Virus record (IMG/VR): IMGVR_UViG_3300032295_003347
From: an uncultured virus (IMG/VR IMGVR_UViG_3300032295_003347)
Lineage: Duplodnaviria > Heunggongvirae > Uroviricota > Caudoviricetes
Strand: one strand, 5' to 3'
Length of the DNA stretch: 20,070 bases
Made by a program: the position numbers and the translations under genes. How positions within the stretch are numbered: the first letter of the stretch is position 1; each line of letters begins with the position of its first letter. Positions 7,511 to 18,694 of the stretch are shown here, in pieces. The notes under the pieces were generated by a model that saw nothing but the letters and a program-made list of their open reading frames with translations, did not search any database and was not told the DNA's origin.

Positions 7511-7804
7511 GTGGGTCCGGAGTACGTAGCAATTGCATTTACGGCAGTTGTCTCTGCCATAACAGGTGGCTCCTGGGCTGCAAACAAAATTCTATTCAGA
7601 GTTCACCAGCGCCTGATTCAGTTATCAGACGACGTGATGACGCAAGAAAATAAGTTGAATAGATTACAGGAGCAGATTGGACGCATGCCAATGGACTACG
7701 TGTTGAAAGTAGATTTTTTACGTGAGATTCAGGAAATGCACGATAACTTTCGACAAATTAACACTAAGCTTGATAAGCTAATGGAAAAGCTTTTGTCAAA
7801 ATGA
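7511..7804 (+). CDS. N-terminal transmembrane plus coiled-coil protein (possibly holin-like)
   Basis: Hydrophobic YVAIAFTAVVSAITGGSWAA followed by a heptad region ending KLDKLMEKLL. Confidence 0.7.
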   Translation: MGPEYVAIAFTAVVSAITGGSWAANKILFRVHQRLIQLSDDVMTQENKLNRLQEQIGRMPMDYVLKVDFLREIQEMHDNFRQINTKLDKLMEKLLSK

Positions 7805-8730: not shown

Positions 8731-8876
8731 TGAAAAAGAAAAAACTGGTCAAAGAAGCTCTCAAGCACCCTGAGTTGTACACACCAGGGGAGTTAGCTTA
8801 CTTTGACCGGTGGTTGTGGCATAAGAAACAAAAGAAAGCTGCTAAGATCAATACAGATAAAGAGGCTGATACTTAA
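8730..8876 (+). CDS. Small basic protein (48 aa, not in ORF track)
   Basis: MKKKKLVKEALKHPELYTPGELAYFDRWLWHKKQKKAAKINTDKEADT; TAATG coupling at both ends. Confidence 0.8.
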   Translation: MKKKKLVKEALKHPELYTPGELAYFDRWLWHKKQKKAAKINTDKEADT

Positions 8877-11206
8877 TGGCTGCCGACGCTAAATCAAGGC
8901 TCAACGAAATCATTACCGCCTATATCGACAAAGATAGTTCCACTGTCGTCGATACGGGCGTTGTGGCCTCGCATTTGGCGCAGATGAAATTATTCGGCAT
9001 CCGCCAGGGTGTTGAGTTTTTCCCCAGCCAGGACAACTTTGGAAATCAACGCAAAGATTTTATCGACCGTGTAATCAAATACAATCAAATTGATGCACGC
9101 TTAGATTCAATCTGGGATTATTTCCTGTGTGATGGAAAAGGTCTGTTCTACATCAGACCTACAAAAATTAATTATCGTATCTACTACTTCCGGGAGCATG
9201 AGTACCGCACGTTTTACAACGTAGACGGTGACCTGGAAGAGGTGGTGATCATCTACAGCTACAAGGTGCGTCGACCTGGTGGCTTTGGAGCCGAGATAGC
9301 ACAGACAAATATTACCGGCAAAACGCTTGGTGACGGCCAGGCTTCAAGGCGTTACATCAGGCTTTCGATTAAGCGTGACGAAATCAAAGAAACTCACGCA
9401 GAAGGTGAATTATCTTTTGACATGCCGGACTATGCAGTCTCCGGTAAAACAAAATTGTTAAAAAATACGCTTGGTTTTATTCCTTGCGTTGAGATCTTCA
9501 ATAACCCCAAAGGCTTTGCTAACGACGGTGTTGGCGAGTTTGATGCGTTGGCCAATCATATCGTCACCCATGACGAAATGGTTCGCACCATGCGCAAGAA
9601 CGTTCAGTTCTTTGGTAACCCCACACTACTGTCATCTCGTCCCAAGACGGACTTGATTGAGGCCGGTGGGGATTCCACGGTACAGCGTCCTTCTATTGCA
9701 GCAAACTCTGGCTTCACCAGTCCCGCATCCTTGAGTGCTTCGATGTTCAAGGCTGATCCCGTCAGCCGTGGTGTTGATGGACAGATTCGAGTTCCAAGGA
9801 TCATTGCAAACCTGGAGCCGAATGACCGTGTTGGTTACATTGTTCCAGATGCAATCACTGGTGACCAAAATCAATTTGCCCGTCAGTATCGCGAAGAAAT
9901 TCGCACTGCACTTGGCGGTGTGGATGAACTGTCAATTTCAGCTGGTGTTACCGCAACTGAATACAAGTCACTATTTGGTCGTGTATCAGCAACATCCAAG
10001 AAAAAAGCAAATGCTATTTACACGTATGGCATCTGCCGCTGCCTTGAGTTAATTATTTATCAAGAAGAACAACTCTTCCGTCAATCGTTGGCGGCTGCAG
10101 CAGGTATTGAAAAGCCAGTTGATCTTCCTGTTGATGCACCAGAAGAAGAAATTGCTGCCTACAGGGAAGCAATGAAAATCTTTAATGATCAAGTCAAAGA
10201 GATTATGATGGCTTGCGTGGAAACAAAAATGATTCCGCCAGGCGTTCTTGGGTTAATCCCCGATGGCGATGTCACGATGCTTTGGCGTTGGACAGGTCCT
10301 GTGTACGAGGAAACCACTCAGGACACACTTAATAATTCTATTGTGGTTCGCAACCTACAAGAATTAGGTGTTGATAGCATTGAAGCACTGAAATACCTCT
10401 TTCCGTCTAAGACGGATGAGGAGCGGGCCGAGATGTTATCTGGGTTCCCGTTCAGGATGGTGAATGAATTGCAGAATGCTTATTCTCAATTCGCCAAATT
10501 GGTGGGGGGGATGATGCAGACTCCTCACCCTCAATCACCAGACTTACCGATGGCTGCTGATCCTCGTCTGGATCTGACACCCTATCTGTATCGAACCTTA
10601 GAAGCTTTACAAAAGGAGATGAGTTATGCAGGACGCTACCGTCCAATCGATCCCACAGACGAGCCAAGCACCAGCAGCAGTAGCCCCAAGCAGCTACGTG
10701 ATGGCGGCACCGGCACCTCAGGCGGCACCGGCCAGCTACCAGGCAGCTCCAGTGGCTTATCAGGTGGGTACCAGCTACCCCCAAGCAGTACCACAGGCGA
10801 ACCCCAGCTACCAATCCGCCCCTACTCAGTACGCCCCCCAATCCCAACCGGCGGAACAGGCGGGGAACCCGTGGGAATCGGCGTTCAACAAGGTGGTGAA
10901 TCTTCTGAGCGCACCAGTTCAATCCCCGTTCCAGGGAGCACCCTCGCAGGTGCCGACACAGTATACCCCGGCGAACTACGGACAAGTCAGCAGCCCAGCT
11001 ACGCAACAATCGGCTCCCCAGACTTGGTCGCCCAGCCAGGATTACTCTCCCAGCTATTCCCAAACCTCTTCGATGCTCTACGGAGCGGCAGCGGAGCAGG
11101 CCCACGCGGAAGTGGACAGCGCGATCGCGGACTACTACCATATGAGTCCGGAAACCCGGCAGGTACTAAACGCGTTCGGAACCGAAGCTCCCGCCGTACT
11201 AAATAA
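8876..11206 (+). CDS. Portal protein with long C-terminal extension
   Basis: Lies between TerL and scaffold/MCP; GFIPCVEIFNNP...GVGEFDALANHI resembles the SPP1 gp6-type portal core; last ~193 codons overlap the next gene. Confidence 0.8.
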   Translation: MAADAKSRLNEIITAYIDKDSSTVVDTGVVASHLAQMKLFGIRQGVEFFPSQDNFGNQRKDFIDRVIKYNQIDARLDSIWDYFLCDGKGLFYIRPTKINYRIYYFREHEYRTFYNVDGDLEEVVIIYSYKVRRPGGFGAEIAQTNITGKTLGDGQASRRYIRLSIKRDEIKETHAEGELSFDMPDYAVSGKTKLLKNTLGFIPCVEIFNNPKGFANDGVGEFDALANHIVTHDEMVRTMRKNVQFFGNPTLLSSRPKTDLIEAGGDSTVQRPSIAANSGFTSPASLSASMFKADPVSRGVDGQIRVPRIIANLEPNDRVGYIVPDAITGDQNQFARQYREEIRTALGGVDELSISAGVTATEYKSLFGRVSATSKKKANAIYTYGICRCLELIIYQEEQLFRQSLAAAAGIEKPVDLPVDAPEEEIAAYREAMKIFNDQVKEIMMACVETKMIPPGVLGLIPDGDVTMLWRWTGPVYEETTQDTLNNSIVVRNLQELGVDSIEALKYLFPSKTDEERAEMLSGFPFRMVNELQNAYSQFAKLVGGMMQTPHPQSPDLPMAADPRLDLTPYLYRTLEALQKEMSYAGRYRPIDPTDEPSTSSSSPKQLRDGGTGTSGGTGQLPGSSSGLSGGYQLPPSSTTGEPQLPIRPYSVRPPIPTGGTGGEPVGIGVQQGGESSERTSSIPVPGSTLAGADTVYPGELRTSQQPSYATIGSPDLVAQPGLLSQLFPNLFDALRSGSGAGPRGSGQRDRGLLPYESGNPAGTKRVRNRSSRRTK

Positions 11207-11630
11207 CTACGCCCTTCAACTTGAAGGGATGCTTGATAGCGCTGTTGCCTGGGGCGAGCGTGCACAGAACGTGATCGTTGGTTATGCCAACTTTGCGGTC
11301 AACGAGCACCAAGAGAACCTGGCCTACAACGAGATTCTTACCAATCCCGATGTACTCAGTGACTACACCCTGAAGTTCTTTGGTCCTGAAGGTCCGTACC
11401 CCGTGTACGAAAGCGAAGCAGAACTGGAGACCCGTGGTTATCCCACCACCTCTGCTTATGGCCAAGTTGGTGAGTTCCCCGCTCCTCCCGCAGCTGCTGC
11501 TCCTCAGCAACCTGAAAACTTCTGGGGCAACTTCAGCGAGATCATGAATCGTGATCCCCAGAACGCCTGGCGCGTCCTGAACCAAGCTCAGCCTGCCACT
11601 GTTGCAAACAAACTGTTTGTGATGGAGTGA
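10626..11630 (+). CDS. Putative capsid scaffolding protein
   Basis: AAGGAG RBS 7 nt before the ATG; Q/P/A low-complexity N-terminus and acidic helical C-terminus; upstream of MCP. Confidence 0.7.
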   Translation: MQDATVQSIPQTSQAPAAVAPSSYVMAAPAPQAAPASYQAAPVAYQVGTSYPQAVPQANPSYQSAPTQYAPQSQPAEQAGNPWESAFNKVVNLLSAPVQSPFQGAPSQVPTQYTPANYGQVSSPATQQSAPQTWSPSQDYSPSYSQTSSMLYGAAAEQAHAEVDSAIADYYHMSPETRQVLNAFGTEAPAVLNNYALQLEGMLDSAVAWGERAQNVIVGYANFAVNEHQENLAYNEILTNPDVLSDYTLKFFGPEGPYPVYESEAELETRGYPTTSAYGQVGEFPAPPAAAAPQQPENFWGNFSEIMNRDPQNAWRVLNQAQPATVANKLFVME

Positions 11631-14273: not shown

Positions 14274-14684
14274 ATGTTGTATCAGCACAAAAAAACTGGC
14301 GCACGTGTCAAGGTTGTAAGCGAATGGGATAACGGTGATTGGTTCATGGTCGAAGACCAAGACGGTCGCCTTTATACCGTTTACAAGACAGAGATTGAGC
14401 TTGATGAATCTGCTACTAAAAAAGTAAAGACTCTTCAAGTTAAAGATCGTGCAGCGCAAGAAGAGCCTCGCACCTTCCCTCCCGATACCCGGCTAAATGT
14501 AAATTCAGCCACCGCCCAAATGATCGCTGATCACATCAAAGGCATTGGTCTGAAGACTGCTCGGGAAATTAAAGATCTTCAGATGTCTTTATCGGGTGAA
14601 AGATTTAACAGTCTTGAGCAGTTAAAGCAAATTAAACGGGTGGATTGGAATGCTGTAATGGCTGCTGATCTGATTAGGGTTTGA
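14274..14684 (+). CDS. Helix-hairpin-helix (ComEA-like) DNA-binding protein with small N-terminal beta domain
   Basis: RLNVNSATAQMIADHIKGIGLKTAREI...FNSLEQLKQI fits the ComEA/HHH_3 pattern. Confidence 0.8.
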   Translation: MLYQHKKTGARVKVVSEWDNGDWFMVEDQDGRLYTVYKTEIELDESATKKVKTLQVKDRAAQEEPRTFPPDTRLNVNSATAQMIADHIKGIGLKTAREIKDLQMSLSGERFNSLEQLKQIKRVDWNAVMAADLIRV

Positions 14685-14698
14685 TTCTCATCTCAAGT

Positions 14699-14725
14699 AG
14701 CCCTCGGGAAACCGAGGGTTTTCTT
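14699..14725 (+). terminator. Intrinsic terminator ending the capsid operon
   Basis: CCCTCGG-GAAA-CCGAGGG stem with a GNRA loop, followed by TTTTCTT. Confidence 0.88.
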
Positions 14726-14741
14726 GTCTTAAAATACAAGT

Positions 14742-15434
14742 ATGGCAAAGATTACGCGGATAGGTCAGCTCGGTTCCTCTGGTATTTCCAGTGGTCCGCA
14801 TTTACATGCATATGTAAAGAACCTTGTTACTGGCGAGTACGAAAACCCTGAGTATCACCGCAGTAAGTTTACAGGCGTACGAGTTGGTGCCAATAGGGTG
14901 CCTAAGTACATTACAGATAGCAAAGGGGAGTTGATCTTAAACCCTGCAGCGGGTTTAACAAAGACTTCCTCCTGGGGACCACGCAACACAGGCATCCCTG
15001 GCGCAAGCACGTACCATAGGGGCGTTGATTACGGTGGCAAGGAAGGCACGGAGATCTACGTCGAAGGTGATGTTAAGTTCACTCCGCGCCCCAATGCAGG
15101 AGGCTATGGGAATCTTGCTACCTGGACCACAGGAGACAATAAGTACGAGCTTGGTTACGGTCACATGAAAACGCTTGGTGAGGCAACCGACCTGACCAAT
15201 ACAAGCGTGGCTACAACCCCGCGTGTCTCATACGAAGACGCCCAAGCCAAAACAAACGATTTAATCGAAGCGTTTATGCTTGGCACTAACTACCAGCCAC
15301 GCGAGAAGAAGCAAACGAAAGAACCCCAGACATTACTTGGTGCATTTAAGGATCAAATATTGGGCGGGATTTTGCAGAACGCAATGAATCCACTTGCGGG
15401 CATCATGGGTCAAGCTGGTGACACTGTCGCTTGA
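14742..15434 (+). CDS. M23 family metallopeptidase, circularly permuted
   Basis: GSSGISSGPHLH (H20, H22), HRGVD (H92, D96), GGYGN and YGHM (H141). Confidence 0.85.
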   Translation: MAKITRIGQLGSSGISSGPHLHAYVKNLVTGEYENPEYHRSKFTGVRVGANRVPKYITDSKGELILNPAAGLTKTSSWGPRNTGIPGASTYHRGVDYGGKEGTEIYVEGDVKFTPRPNAGGYGNLATWTTGDNKYELGYGHMKTLGEATDLTNTSVATTPRVSYEDAQAKTNDLIEAFMLGTNYQPREKKQTKEPQTLLGAFKDQILGGILQNAMNPLAGIMGQAGDTVA

Positions 15435-15474
15435 TTTGTTGCTTTTATAATAAAAGGTACACTGGAACATAGAA

Positions 15475-15936
15475 GTGCAATTTAGCGACTTCGACAAAAG
15501 TAGAATTAGGTATCATCTGGGATACTTCACTGTTTCTGTGCCAGCGGGTGACTATGCTCGTCTGGAAGAGGCGATGAATACGGTCCCTGATTCTTACTTC
15601 TACGATAAAATTGTTATCCAGATTGGGCGTTGCGATACGGCCGAAAAGAAGACAGAGGTTGCATCCTCTCCTTCCACTCGGATTGAAAATATTGTTGGCG
15701 ACGTTGACCGTACCATTCGGTCGAGCAATGCCAAAGAAGCGCTAAAAGTTTGGGACGAGATTTACCTCTACGAAACAAATCGTTTAGCTGGCATTCTTTA
15801 CGTTCCTAACTACAAAGATCCGTACCAGGCACGTTACCGTTACGAACGCTCTGGTGCAGAATTTATCCAGGCATTACCTGGACCTGCTGATACGGCAGTT
15901 GGTTCCCGTATTTATTTACATGAGGTTTGGAGGTAA
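15475..15936 (+). CDS. Putative head-tail adaptor/head completion protein
   Basis: 153 aa, GTG start; N-terminal DKSRIRYHLGY helix, size and position fit adaptor proteins (inference). Confidence 0.55.
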   Translation: MQFSDFDKSRIRYHLGYFTVSVPAGDYARLEEAMNTVPDSYFYDKIVIQIGRCDTAEKKTEVASSPSTRIENIVGDVDRTIRSSNAKEALKVWDEIYLYETNRLAGILYVPNYKDPYQARYRYERSGAEFIQALPGPADTAVGSRIYLHEVWR

Positions 15937-15938
15937 TC

Positions 15939-16895
15939 ATGCCTATTCCCATTAACCGGAATCCCGATAATACATATGGGATTTTTGGAGCCCTTAAGAA
16001 TTTTATTTCGCCTCCAGGCTACGTTTCACGTGGACCACGTGGCTCTTTGCCAGCGGGTAGAGGGCAGTCAGTAACGCAGCGCCCTGTTGGAGCGCAAGCT
16101 GTGCTAGGGGGCAAGCCTGTGTATTGGGGAGGAAATGATTATGGCTGGCAGCAACTTAATCAAACTGGCAGCAGCGCAACTTTAAATGCGCTTAATACTC
16201 CTTCTGCGCAAGGACGTTTTATTCAAGACCAATCTTCTTCTCCTGCTGCCAAACGTGCTTACCAGCAGGAAGTTTCGCGTGTTGCCCAGCTGACCGCACA
16301 AGACCCTGAACTTCAGCGTTACGAAGATGCTCGCAAAAAAGCAGTTGCTGCTGGCCCTGGCTCTGCCGCCGAACAATCTGCAGAAGACATTGGGATGCAG
16401 ATTTGGGCAAAAAAATATGGCAAGCCAGGAGATCTTGCGTCACGCGTTAAGCCTGGCCAAGCTGGTTACGACGTAATCCAGCGCACCTTGAATGCAGGTC
16501 AGATGGGTGCTCCTGCTGACTTAGGTGCATTCACTGGCACTGCTCCTGCAGGATTCCTTGGGACCTCTGGAGCCCCAGTCACCAGTAGTTACGCAGGTGT
16601 TAAACCTGTTAATTTAGGCATGGGTGCAATTGGTCCTAACGCACTGACCAATGCATATAACATGCAGACCGCAAGCTCTTTCAACCGTTTTATGGAAGGG
16701 CCAACGTTAAGTAGCCAGCCCCTTGGCGCACCAACTGCATCTATTGGTGAAGTCCCAACCTACTCTCAGCTAACCCAACCTCAATCCTATGGGTTAGGTC
16801 CTATCCCTGGACAGGAAGAAACTTTTGGTAGCGACGCCTCTCAAAAGTTTGCTAATACATACGCTAAGAAGCTGCTGAACTTCCAGCCTATTTGA
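15939..16895 (+). CDS. Gly/Pro/Gln-rich hypothetical protein, putative virion protein
   Basis: Track ORF starts at 15927; ATG 15939 preferred because of GGAGG at 15929-15933. Confidence 0.75.
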   Translation: MPIPINRNPDNTYGIFGALKNFISPPGYVSRGPRGSLPAGRGQSVTQRPVGAQAVLGGKPVYWGGNDYGWQQLNQTGSSATLNALNTPSAQGRFIQDQSSSPAAKRAYQQEVSRVAQLTAQDPELQRYEDARKKAVAAGPGSAAEQSAEDIGMQIWAKKYGKPGDLASRVKPGQAGYDVIQRTLNAGQMGAPADLGAFTGTAPAGFLGTSGAPVTSSYAGVKPVNLGMGAIGPNALTNAYNMQTASSFNRFMEGPTLSSQPLGAPTASIGEVPTYSQLTQPQSYGLGPIPGQEETFGSDASQKFANTYAKKLLNFQPI

Positions 16896-16900
16896 TTTAT

Positions 16901-16967
16901 CTGGCAGTGCATTGCATGTAAGCCCAGCCAACTGGACACAGATCTTTGATCTACGGGGGCCAGTGTT
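16901..16967 (+). ncRNA. Candidate structured RNA/leader element
   Basis: CTGGC/GCCAG closing stem enclosing CCAG-CCAA-CTGG and AGATC-TTT-GATCT hairpins in a GC-richer intergenic gap. Confidence 0.35.
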
Positions 16968-16981
16968 GTTGCTTTAAAACA

Positions 16982-17098
16982 ATGATTCTCTGTCCCAAAT
17001 TTGTTAAACGTACTTTGACCTATTTAGCTACGACCCTTGCGCTGCAAACCGTATTTATCCCTGGTCTCAAAGCAAGTTCAAATTGGGTAGGAGAATAA
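16982..17098 (+). CDS. 38-aa signal-peptide-like small ORF (not in ORF track)
   Basis: MILCPKFVKRTLTYLATTLALQTVFIPGLKASSNWVGE; its stop overlaps the AAGGAG RBS of the lysozyme gene. Confidence 0.5.
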   Translation: MILCPKFVKRTLTYLATTLALQTVFIPGLKASSNWVGE

Positions 17099-17108
17099 GG
17101 AGAACAAT

Positions 17109-17780
17109 ATGTCATTAAGTCCCGCTGCTGCTATTGTTGCTCGTAAGTTAAAACAACAAGGTTATAGCAACGCACAAATTGCAGGTGTCCTTGGCAACAT
17201 CTCCCAAGAGTCTGGCTTTAATCCTCGCGTCAACGAGGGTGGTGCAGTTGGTGGTCCCATGGGACGCGGCGGGTATGGCTTGGCACAGTGGACGGGTGGC
17301 CGTCAAACAAATTTAGTTAATTTTGCAAAAACAAAAAAGCTTGATCCAGGTGATGCCGGTCTTCAAGCCGATTTCTTATTGCATGAATTACAAGGACCCG
17401 AAAGTCGTGCAGCCGAATCTTTACGTAAGGCACAGTCACCTGAGCAAGCAGCGTTAGTTTTTCGTCGTGATTATGAACGCGCCGGCATCCCCAAAGATGA
17501 GAACCGGATGCGTGCAGCACGCGACTTAATGCCTAAACTGCAATCACTAGAAGGTGGGATTGATTTTGCACCACCTGCCCTCCCTGGAGAGCAGCAAAGT
17601 GTTGCTTACCGTTTAGCGCAAGCAGGTATTGATCTCACGGGTGAGCAAGAAGACAAAAAAACAACGGCTAATACATTGCTAGACGCATTTAAGCAGCAGG
17701 TTCTTCCTGCAATACTTCCGCAAGGTATTATGAACATTAACGCCGTTAATCCGTTCCAAAATCCATTCCAGGTGCTTTGA
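17109..17780 (+). CDS. Phage tail lysozyme (Phage_lysozyme2-like) peptidoglycan hydrolase
   Basis: AGVLGNISQESGFNP, GYGLAQWTGGR, QADFLLHEL, AALVFRRDYER; AAGGAG RBS. Confidence 0.88.
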   Translation: MSLSPAAAIVARKLKQQGYSNAQIAGVLGNISQESGFNPRVNEGGAVGGPMGRGGYGLAQWTGGRQTNLVNFAKTKKLDPGDAGLQADFLLHELQGPESRAAESLRKAQSPEQAALVFRRDYERAGIPKDENRMRAARDLMPKLQSLEGGIDFAPPALPGEQQSVAYRLAQAGIDLTGEQEDKKTTANTLLDAFKQQVLPAILPQGIMNINAVNPFQNPFQVL

Positions 17781-18076
17781 TGGACCGTCGAGATTACGTT
17801 GGTAGCGATGATGTTTTACCAGGAGATTACAACCGTTATCTCTCTGGTAAAGACTCTGCAAAGCCTAACCCCAGCAAGGATATTCAATACAGACTTGCCA
17901 AGCTGTACAAGGTAGATGATTTTAATCGTCTAGCATCTTCCGTTGCTGGGGCGCCAAGGTCTGAATCGTTCCAGCGTTTTCTCGCTCTTCAGCAAGATCC
18001 TGATCTTCTTGCAAGGGCATCGATGAAGATGCCCAATACACCCTTCGGACCGCTGGGCAGTTTCGCTGAAAGCTAA
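17777..18076 (+). CDS. Hypothetical protein
   Basis: 99 aa; ATGA overlap with the lysozyme stop. Confidence 0.7.
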   Translation: MMDRRDYVGSDDVLPGDYNRYLSGKDSAKPNPSKDIQYRLAKLYKVDDFNRLASSVAGAPRSESFQRFLALQQDPDLLARASMKMPNTPFGPLGSFAES

Positions 18077-18077
18077 T

Positions 18078-18629
18078 TTATTTTTTAGCAAAGGCTTTTT
18101 CAAGCGGCCAGTCTTTATTTAAGCGTTTTTGCATTGACTGGGGAGAGATGCCAACTTCTTTTGCCCAATCAGCAATACACATAGTTTTTCCTTCAAACGT
18201 GTAAAGCCTTGTTGCACGCTTGCCTCCACGGTTACGTGTTTGTTCTTTGTGAGTAGCCCAGCGACAATTTTCTTTACAGTAGTTTTTGTCGTTGTCGATT
18301 CTTTCTAATTCCATTTTAGGCATTGGTTTTTTACCCATATCAGCAAGGAATTGTTCATATTTTTCCCAGCGTGGATCATAAGTAATACCGCGTCCACCAT
18401 AGCGGGAATAGGATTCGTGTTTCAAGTTATTGCACCTATTTTTCATTGCACCCCAAGAAGAATATTCGGCTTCTTGATTTTTATGGCCACCATGCTTGTA
18501 ACTTCCACAACTTTTAGAACAAAAAACATAACCACGTTTTTTTAATTTGCTGCGGCAAGTGGCTCCAACCATGCCCAGTCTTTCAAAGTTGTTGCCACAA
18601 TTTTTACAAACAAAAATGGTTTGGACCAT
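18078..18629 (-). CDS. HNH-type homing endonuclease-like protein with N-terminal Cys4 zinc finger
   Basis: WGAMKNRC, YGGRGI, FLADMG, LERIDNDKNYCKENCRWAT..EQTRN; CKNC and FCSKSC pairs; C-terminal IADWAKEVGI HTH-like segment. ATG 18629 preferred over the track start at 18665. Confidence 0.85.
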   Translation of the reverse strand: MVQTIFVCKNCGNNFERLGMVGATCRSKLKKRGYVFCSKSCGSYKHGGHKNQEAEYSSWGAMKNRCNNLKHESYSRYGGRGITYDPRWEKYEQFLADMGKKPMPKMELERIDNDKNYCKENCRWATHKEQTRNRGGKRATRLYTFEGKTMCIADWAKEVGISPQSMQKRLNKDWPLEKAFAKK

Positions 18630-18694
18630 TAGAATAGGGGAAGTTTCCCGGAGACGCCCTGTCAATATAACAGAGGCAGAGCGTTTAGTCTACA

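What the first reader, a model, noticed from the sequence alone, without database searches (positions are those of the whole stretch)
15310..17780. Two unrelated wall hydrolases share a C-terminal motif: possible virion-loading or export signal
Seen: the M23 tail KKQTKEPQTLLGAFKDQILGGILQNAMNP (about 15330-15392) and the lysozyme tail KKTTANTLLDAFKQQVLPAILPQGIMNINAVNP (about 17673-17755) share KKxT...TLLxAFKxQ(I/V)LxxIL...NP. The DNA is also similar (acattacttggtgcatttaag vs acattgctagacgcatttaag). In both, the motif follows a low-complexity linker after unrelated catalytic folds. Inference: an amphipathic helix acts as a modular address tag that docks enzymes onto a common partner (portal, core or ejection channel), i.e. 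a cargo-loading system for envelope-penetrating enzymes.
Basis: partly seen in the sequence, partly recalled or inferred. Interest (0 to 1): 0.8.

Follow-up and report, generated by a model that had tools for sequence, protein, structure and literature searches.

The report
Two phage wall enzymes, matched tails
In a family of viruses of lake cyanobacteria, two cell-wall-cutting enzymes with interchangeable cutting parts end in related helical tails that change in step, and one enzyme also seems to gain an export signal through a reading-frame shift.

Summary
The window is an S-EIV1-like cyanophage (capsid protein 86% identical). The shared tail is real (2 of 10,000 shuffles, best of 276 gene pairs) and larger than described: a ~65-residue module of two or three short helices on two fixed gene slots; tail profiles match at 94.6%. 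Heads swap: permuted M23 or M15-like peptidase in slot 1; Phage_lysozyme2, lambda-R-like, SLT and others in slot 2. The two tails of one genome co-vary in protein but not at silent sites. No partner was shown. New: a conserved 38-codon signal-peptide-like ORF (16982-17098) is frame-locked to slot 2 (41/41 and 53/53 junctions), implying +1 recoding into an exported form. Best reading: a matched assembly module that anchors a peptidase-glycosidase pair, probably in the virion; location and binding are inferred.

The parts
14699..14720 (+). terminator-like hairpin closing the capsid-gene run, directly before slot 1
   Evidence: same hairpin seen before slot 1 in the 14 loci printed; function inferred
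14742..15434 (+). slot 1: circularly permuted M23 peptidase head (residues 1-150) plus tail
   Evidence: Pfam; PDB profile match in permuted order, E 5.9e-17; H20, H92, D96, H141 invariant in 51; model; fold (Z 5.4, rmsd 4.0, 87 aligned)
15231..15431 (+). slot-1 tail: helix 164-181, charged linker, helix 198-215, Asn-Pro
   Evidence: pLDDT block means 34-58
15475..15936 (+). conserved 153-aa gene (phrog_29158), likely head-tail adaptor; anchor for the comparison
   Evidence: adaptor label is a lead only (Atlas 0.90, 139 shared features)
15939..16895 (+). g22: conserved central helical segment with hypervariable ends; no tail, no co-variation with tails
16902..16978 (+). conserved structured element (inner hairpin with compensatory changes, outer stem) before the peptide ORF
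   Evidence: 38 sequences, 6 of 24 pairs with changes on both sides; no Rfam family at gathering level
16982..17098 (+). 38-codon ORF with signal-peptide anatomy, frame-locked to slot 2
   Evidence: present at 94 of 95 slot-2 loci
17084..17108 (+). inferred +1 junction (Trp-Val-Gly codons) and stop-free linker in the slot-2 frame (17091-17108)
   Evidence: recoding itself is inferred
17109..17780 (+). slot 2: Phage_lysozyme2 head (residues 1-148) plus tail
17580..17777 (+). slot-2 tail: helices 165-171 and 181-202, low confidence
   Evidence: pLDDT below 50 over most of 150-223
17780..18076 (+). g24, 98 aa, present only with one class of tails; candidate third component
   Evidence: 19 of 19 versus 0 of 37 loci, 4 too short to tell

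Best explanation
The tail is a helical assembly module that folds on binding and holds a peptidoglycan peptidase (slot 1) and a glycan-cleaving enzyme (slot 2) in one assembly, by binding each other or one equally variable partner (g24 is the best candidate in the window's class). The catalytic heads are exchangeable cartridges. The forms started at each gene's own ATG are most likely low-copy virion proteins used to open the thick cyanobacterial wall at entry: a split, modular counterpart of the single transglycosylase-plus-M23 ejection protein of cyanophage A4. Separately, slot 2 is probably also made with a signal peptide by +1 recoding and exported. Shown: homology of the tails, head swapping, co-variation, restriction to two genes, frame lock. 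Inferred: binding, virion location, enzyme activity, recoding, export.
For: Tail profiles match at 94.6% (E 7.3e-8, 53 columns), controls 1.6% and 0.6%; each slot's HMM ranks the other slot's genes at the top of 15,418 ORFs (15/60 and 15/68 at E<=0.001; the 5 other hits are unlabelled slot genes). Five of 14 slot-1 and 4 of 22 slot-2 tail clusters carry more than one head cluster. Same-genome tails are more alike than cross-genome ones (z 4.0 vs 2.1, 0 of 20,000 permutations, 23 types; stricter draws of about 12, median p 0.017; g22 controls p 0.48 and 0.23) without silent-site excess. Tail1~tail2 rho 0.62 (p 0.0005, n 24) across a hypervariable gene in between, head1~tail1 -0.06. Within the g24-bearing class the two slots match at 96.5%, while slot-2 tails of the two classes match each other at 2.5%. 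Helices have low confidence alone. Genes lie among capsid, adaptor-like and portal-like genes behind a terminator. Other lysin genes without the tail exist (S-EIV1 Phage_lysozyme and glucosaminidase-C39; family 13 at 0.9%). A4 gp28 joins both activities in an ejection protein (PMC12002296, passages).
Against: No proteomics or binding data. A signal peptide tied to slot 2 at 94 of 95 loci points to the periplasm as much as to the virion. No third gene co-varies convincingly (best window rho 0.51 for g13, n 11, p 0.01 among 11 families tested; portal 0.40). Related genomes are not independent, and 10% of strict draws miss p<0.05. Slot-2 head and tail are partly linked (rho 0.37). Slot-1 tails against the Phage_lysozyme2 family alone give only 8%. 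Helical moment of slot-1 tails barely exceeds shuffles (0.52 vs 0.50). Five distant relatives lack slot 1 and three lack both slots, so the pair is accessory.
Confidence: 0.5

Rival explanations
1. The pair acts from inside the infected cell (lysis or wall remodelling): slot 2 is exported by its recoded signal peptide, and the tails pair the enzymes or tether them in the periplasm, slot 1 leaving through a holin or riding along with slot 2.
For: Signal-peptide anatomy in 77 distinct peptides: n-region charge +2 or +3 in 75, Ala at -1 in 77, basic or Gln residue at -2; frame lock; coding-type variation 0.24/0.15/0.47 by codon position.
Against: Slot 1 has no signal and its upstream spacer is not frame-locked (49 of 57 with stops); only 16 of 77 peptides have RR, 52 KR, 9 neither, so Tat co-export is doubtful; each head type keeps its own ATG; other lysin genes exist; L178 and L175 keep a tail-like end without the peptide ORF (L178 tail only E 0.3).
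Confidence: 0.22
2. Both tails bind the same host component (envelope protein or membrane) and switch together with host lineage; they do not bind each other or a virion protein.
For: Explains co-variation with no co-varying phage gene; short apolar-faced helices, net charge about -1 to -2, no transmembrane segment in 127 tails.
Against: No host data for the metagenomic loci; g24 tracks tail class exactly, which suggests a phage-side partner; tails are not cationic like membrane-permeabilising endolysin helices (recalled).
Confidence: 0.12
3. General address tag docking cargo on a conserved site of portal, capsid or adaptor.
For: Tail independent of head; a variable portal stretch (columns about 150-200) shows weak co-variation, rho 0.40, p 0.03 uncorrected; helical cargo segments bind portal and tail in crAss001 (PMC10172136, passages).
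Against: Two carriers only; no new head type among 120 listed homologues; tails far more variable than the proposed partners; no likeness to the scaffold C-terminus.
Confidence: 0.1
4. Relic of an old duplication kept alike by occasional gene conversion, with little function.
For: Low column identity (17%); low model confidence.
Against: No silent-site or exact-match excess within genomes; tail kept on every head type; hydrophobic columns at 0.8-1.0 in both slots.
Confidence: 0.06

Closest known systems
Synechococcus phage S-EIV1 (KJ410740)
   Same: Same gene order; both slots, tails, g24, RNA element and peptide ORF present.
   Different: Slot 1 is annotated only as M23 peptidase, slot 2 as hypothetical; peptide ORF and element are unannotated. 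The original paper was not held.
Cyanopodophage A4 ejection protein gp28 (PMC12002296, passages read)
   Same: Lytic transglycosylase plus M23 peptidase delivered from the virion; helical bundles assemble it.
   Different: One 1058-residue chain with N-terminal bundles; here two 210-260 aa proteins with C-terminal tails and swappable heads. No tail likeness in PDB.
Virion-associated lysins in general (PMC6116005, passages read)
   Same: Glycosidase or endopeptidase domains without wall-binding domain, in structural regions.
   Different: Usually large fusions to tail or core proteins; here small stand-alone enzymes with a shared, co-evolving module and a probable exported form.
T4 capsid targeting sequence; encapsulin cargo-loading peptides (search listing; details recalled)
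   Same: Terminal segment on unrelated proteins proposed to direct them into a shell.
   Different: Those are about 10-20 residues with a conserved motif and a conserved partner; this is about 65 residues, variable, on two genes.
Programmed +1 frameshifting in phage structural genes (Listeria PSA; Ty3-type shift without re-pairing) (PMC5009743, passages read)
   Same: Short upstream frame joined to a +1 frame; rare codons at the site (GGA 0 of 39 Gly, GTA 1 of 25 Val in the capsid gene).
   Different: Known phage cases add C-terminal extensions; 'signal peptide' and 'signal sequence' have 0 occurrences in the held first 300,000 characters. No uniform slippery site here.
Sec-exported and SAR endolysins (PMC6116005 passage; details recalled)
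   Same: N-terminal export signal on a muralytic enzyme.
   Different: Here the signal is in another reading frame and the enzyme keeps its own start.

Membership tests
M23 peptidase (slot-1 head) | HxxxD and HxH zinc motifs, catalytic His, M23 fold | tested here: met
   H92-D96, H20, H141 invariant in 51; Pfam above cut-off; PDB halves in permuted order; top VIA rows all M23. Second His of HxH is Asp in one subtype.
M15-like peptidase (alternative slot-1 head) | H-x6-D and H-x-H with the M15 fold | tested here: inconclusive
   Motifs invariant in 8; 1LBU only E 0.067; no Pfam hit; family assignment recalled; not folded.
Virion-associated lysin | Muralytic catalytic domain without wall-binding domain | tested here: met
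   no further Pfam domain; activity not assayed.
Virion-associated lysin | Present in the mature virion | not testable with these tools
   Only gene position.
Capsid-targeting / cargo-loading peptide | Terminal, after a flexible linker, on unrelated proteins | tested here: met
Capsid-targeting / cargo-loading peptide | Short conserved motif shared across the family | tested here: not met
   Strict motif 7/67 and 4/60; 17% column identity.
Capsid-targeting / cargo-loading peptide | Several further cargo proteins carry it | tested here: not met
   weak divergent copies cannot be excluded.
Capsid-targeting / cargo-loading peptide | Binds shell, portal or core and is sufficient for packaging | not testable with these tools
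   No complex model or experiment.
Sec signal peptide (38-codon ORF) | Basic n-region, apolar core, helix break and small residue at -1 | tested here: met
   (hand criteria on 77 peptides; no trained predictor available).
Tat signal peptide (38-codon ORF) | Twin-arginine consensus | tested here: inconclusive
   RR 16, KR 52, other 9 of 77.
Programmed +1 frameshift | Conserved frame relation and open overlap | tested here: met
Programmed +1 frameshift | Identifiable shift site with tRNA re-pairing | tested here: inconclusive
   Junction 13-mer in 7 variants; no re-pairing common to all, by inspection.
Programmed +1 frameshift | Trans-frame product detected | not testable with these tools
   Needs proteomics or a reporter.
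Transmembrane or cationic membrane-permeabilising helix (tail) | Long apolar segment or net positive charge | tested here: not met
   0 of 127 tails above 1.6 on a 19-residue scale; median charge -1 and -2.

The most novel reading that the evidence does not exclude
A two-enzyme wall-cutting cassette in which co-evolving paralogous tails pair exchangeable peptidase and glycosidase heads, and a programmed +1 recoding event, set behind an undescribed structured RNA, adds a signal peptide to the glycosidase, so that one gene supplies both a virion-loaded and an exported enzyme, the peptidase possibly carried along by its tail.
Probability: 0.25. Interest if true: 0.85.

Novelty: new variant of a known kind. 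Interest (0 to 1): 0.68.

Why it matters
How small enzymes are recruited into virions without being fused to tail or core proteins is poorly known; here two natural slots with swappable heads and matched tail classes give a direct swap test in a cultured phage (S-EIV1). A signal peptide supplied by frameshifting would be a form of dual targeting that I did not find for phage lysins, and it is invisible to standard annotation.

Tried and rejected
No whole genome is held for the window, so genome-wide checks used 21 relatives and 20 extra stretches. Gene conversion: rejected. Scaffold C-terminus mimicry and g24 as a headless tail: not supported (below 1.3%), though g24's HMM touches one slot-2 tail type at E 0.66. 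Extra carriers: weak hits only (g4 orthologue L209 E 0.0055 of 1,415 ORFs; L345 87-aa ORF E 0.008 of 240; g16 C-terminus 6.7%); not accepted. Foldseek found nothing for the permuted M23 model; Atlas and PDB gave nothing usable for the tail; capsid and portal-like proteins have no PDB sequence match; two head types stayed unnamed in PDB. For the frame lock I considered and set aside: amber reassignment (TAG ends genes; the slot-2 frame has other stops upstream), an intron joining g22 to slot 2 (g22 stop precedes the element at variable distance; no Rfam intron), tmRNA, an antisense gene (heads differ entirely), long-range pairing between the peptide ORF's ends (consensus fold keeps 3 pairs; duplex -15.5 vs -10.5 +/- 3.1 recoded, 6% reach it; unresolved). 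In six genomes the peptide ORF lies inside g22; its apolar look there could be a shadow-frame effect, so I rely only on the stop avoidance (0 of 42 vs 35-40% elsewhere; about 12 distinct sites). PMC4542033 was a wrong id and irrelevant. Three look-ups of earlier findings returned nothing.
Full report
Setting. The window carries a terminase, a portal-like virion protein, a capsid protein and many low-complexity genes. The capsid protein is 85.8% and the 153-aa gene at 15475 is 85.0% identical to Synechococcus phage S-EIV1, the only match among 50,697 phage records. Gene order is the same. The S-EIV1 paper was not held; I saw only mentions of it.

Observation. The tails align with score 56, reached by 2 of 10,000 shuffles and best of 276 gene pairs. 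The DNA likeness is what the shared residues give.

Two slots. Using the 15475 gene as anchor in 116 loci, I took the gene before it (slot 1; 109 loci, 67 distinct proteins) and the 195-260 aa gene after g22 (slot 2; 95 loci, 60 distinct). Dropped by the length rule: truncated L148 and L175, the longer L153, and L176/L177, which have no slot 1. Slot-1 heads form 6 clusters, slot-2 heads 7. Slot 1: permuted M23 subtypes, an M15-like head (motifs invariant, 1LBU at E 0.067) and an unnamed type. Slot 2: Phage_lysozyme2, SLT, lambda-lysozyme-like (E 3e-22) and unnamed types. Heads change while tails stay: window vs L023 89% tail and 51% head DNA identity; L138 vs L132 87% and 49%.

The tail is one family. 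Profiles of the two slots' tails match at 94.6% over 53 columns; g22 controls 1.6% and 0.6%. Each slot's HMM finds the other slot among 15,418 ORFs: 15 of 60 and 15 of 68 at E<=0.001, 27 and 33 at E<=0.1, with one true outsider. The literal motif is local (7/67, 4/60), the hydrophobic spacing general. Models show confident heads and two low-confidence helices. No tail is transmembrane or cationic.

Only two carriers. Of 55 gene families, only the four slot families score above 80% against a tail profile; the next is 1.3% and the Phage_lysozyme family 0.9%. In 21 records, 19 match, 18 with exactly two genes; the third hit in G007 lies in a broken 59-aa frame; the two misses have tail types I had left out of the profile, and this search uses a loose first filter. 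All 120 listed of 156 database hits have known head types; 24 of 29 representatives fetched were, by eye, slot proteins or fragments. Five distant relatives lack slot 1 and three of them both slots.

The tails move together. Same-genome pairs score z 4.0 against 2.1 (0 of 20,000 permutations, 23 types); composition alone gives p 0.06; stricter draws give median p 0.017, worst 0.16; g22 controls show nothing. There is no silent-site excess (95 vs 88.5 of 238), so this is protein-level matching or very old conversion. Tail1~tail2 rho 0.62, head1~tail1 -0.06, head2~tail2 0.37 (n 24). No other gene matches that after allowing for 11 tests; two small families scored higher on 10-11 partly redundant loci (g24 0.69, family 25 0.76). 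g24 is present with one tail class in 19 of 19 loci and in 0 of 37 others. I infer that the tails bind each other or one variable partner; this could not be modelled.

An unannotated signal. Between g22 and slot 2 lie a conserved hairpin element without Rfam match and a 38-codon ORF found at 94 of 95 slot-2 loci, with coding-type variation (0.24/0.15/0.47, 110 sequences) and signal-peptide anatomy. Its frame is tied to slot 2: 41 of 41 distinct junctions over 8 lengths and, in a second, partly overlapping sample of 120 pattern loci, 53 of 53 distinct junctions (one further hit was not the element; five gave no ORF, one of them L240 with a shift inside slot 2). The slot-2 frame is open from the junction to the ATG in all, over up to 20 codons; 0 of 73 pooled spacers have a stop against 8.5 of 44 classes in the null (0 of 3,000 runs); control spacers are unlocked. 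Where the spacer lies inside g22, stop-making codons are avoided (0 of 42 vs 35-40% elsewhere; about 12 sites in 6 related sequences). The simplest reading is +1 recoding near the Trp-Val-Gly codons, which are rare ones in the capsid gene; I found no common re-pairing site, and the product is not shown. Slot 1 has no such signal; a terminator-like hairpin precedes it.

Mechanism. Most likely (0.5) the tails assemble a peptidase-glycosidase pair in the virion for entry, like A4 gp28 split in two (PMC12002296, passages; general background PMC6116005, and PMC10172136, passages), with a second, exported form of slot 2. Rivals: action from inside the cell (0.22), a shared host partner (0.12), a general tag on a conserved site (0.10), relic (0.06).

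Known or new. I found no description of the tail, the slots or the peptide ORF in searches (listings only) or among earlier findings; the library lacks the S-EIV1 paper and most subscription papers, and no supplements were read. It works like a virion-associated lysin module but fails two defining tests of cargo-loading peptides. Verdict: real, larger and different from what was proposed; new variant of a known kind; interest 0.68.

Noticed in passing
window 16896-17108: Structured element plus frame-locked signal-peptide ORF before slot 2; deserves its own entry.
   Followed up: yes
window 8876-11206 and 10626-11630: Portal-like ORF overlaps the scaffold-like ORF by about 580 bases in another frame; long form is common in relatives (family 8 median 763 aa; 38 scaffold C-termini).
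   Followed up: no
window 15939-16895; L127, L139, L143, L149, L150, L159: g22 has mosaic ends around a conserved helical segment; in six loci it is 470-500 aa and overlaps the peptide ORF and the slot-2 linker in other frames.
   Followed up: partly
L153 4667-5749: Slot-1 protein with an extra N-terminal domain that looks SGNH-like (label recalled) before the M15-like head.
   Followed up: no
window 18078-18665 minus strand: HNH endonuclease inserted after g24; absent in close relatives such as L006.
   Followed up: no
L184 33217-33882 and family 13: Phage_lysozyme gene with an 80-residue C-terminal extension ends in TAG in 28 of 30 cases, while TAG is rare in other late genes.
   Followed up: no
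L184 33903-34223 (family 19): Small protein that resembles NblA (recalled likeness, not tested).
   Followed up: no
window 14274-14684: Helix-hairpin-helix protein, highly conserved, between the capsid genes and the terminator.
   Followed up: no
window 7511-7804: Membrane segment plus coiled coil with weak spanin and lipoprotein hits; possible lysis gene.
   Followed up: no
L345 10944 and L346 10941: In distant relatives the g22-like ORF can start inside the adaptor-like gene with a signal-like leader; may be a shadow-frame effect.
   Followed up: no
L175-L178, L342-L347: Phage contigs of this family are binned into genomes labelled as unrelated bacteria; one lies in an uncultured Prochlorococcus assembly.
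   Followed up: no
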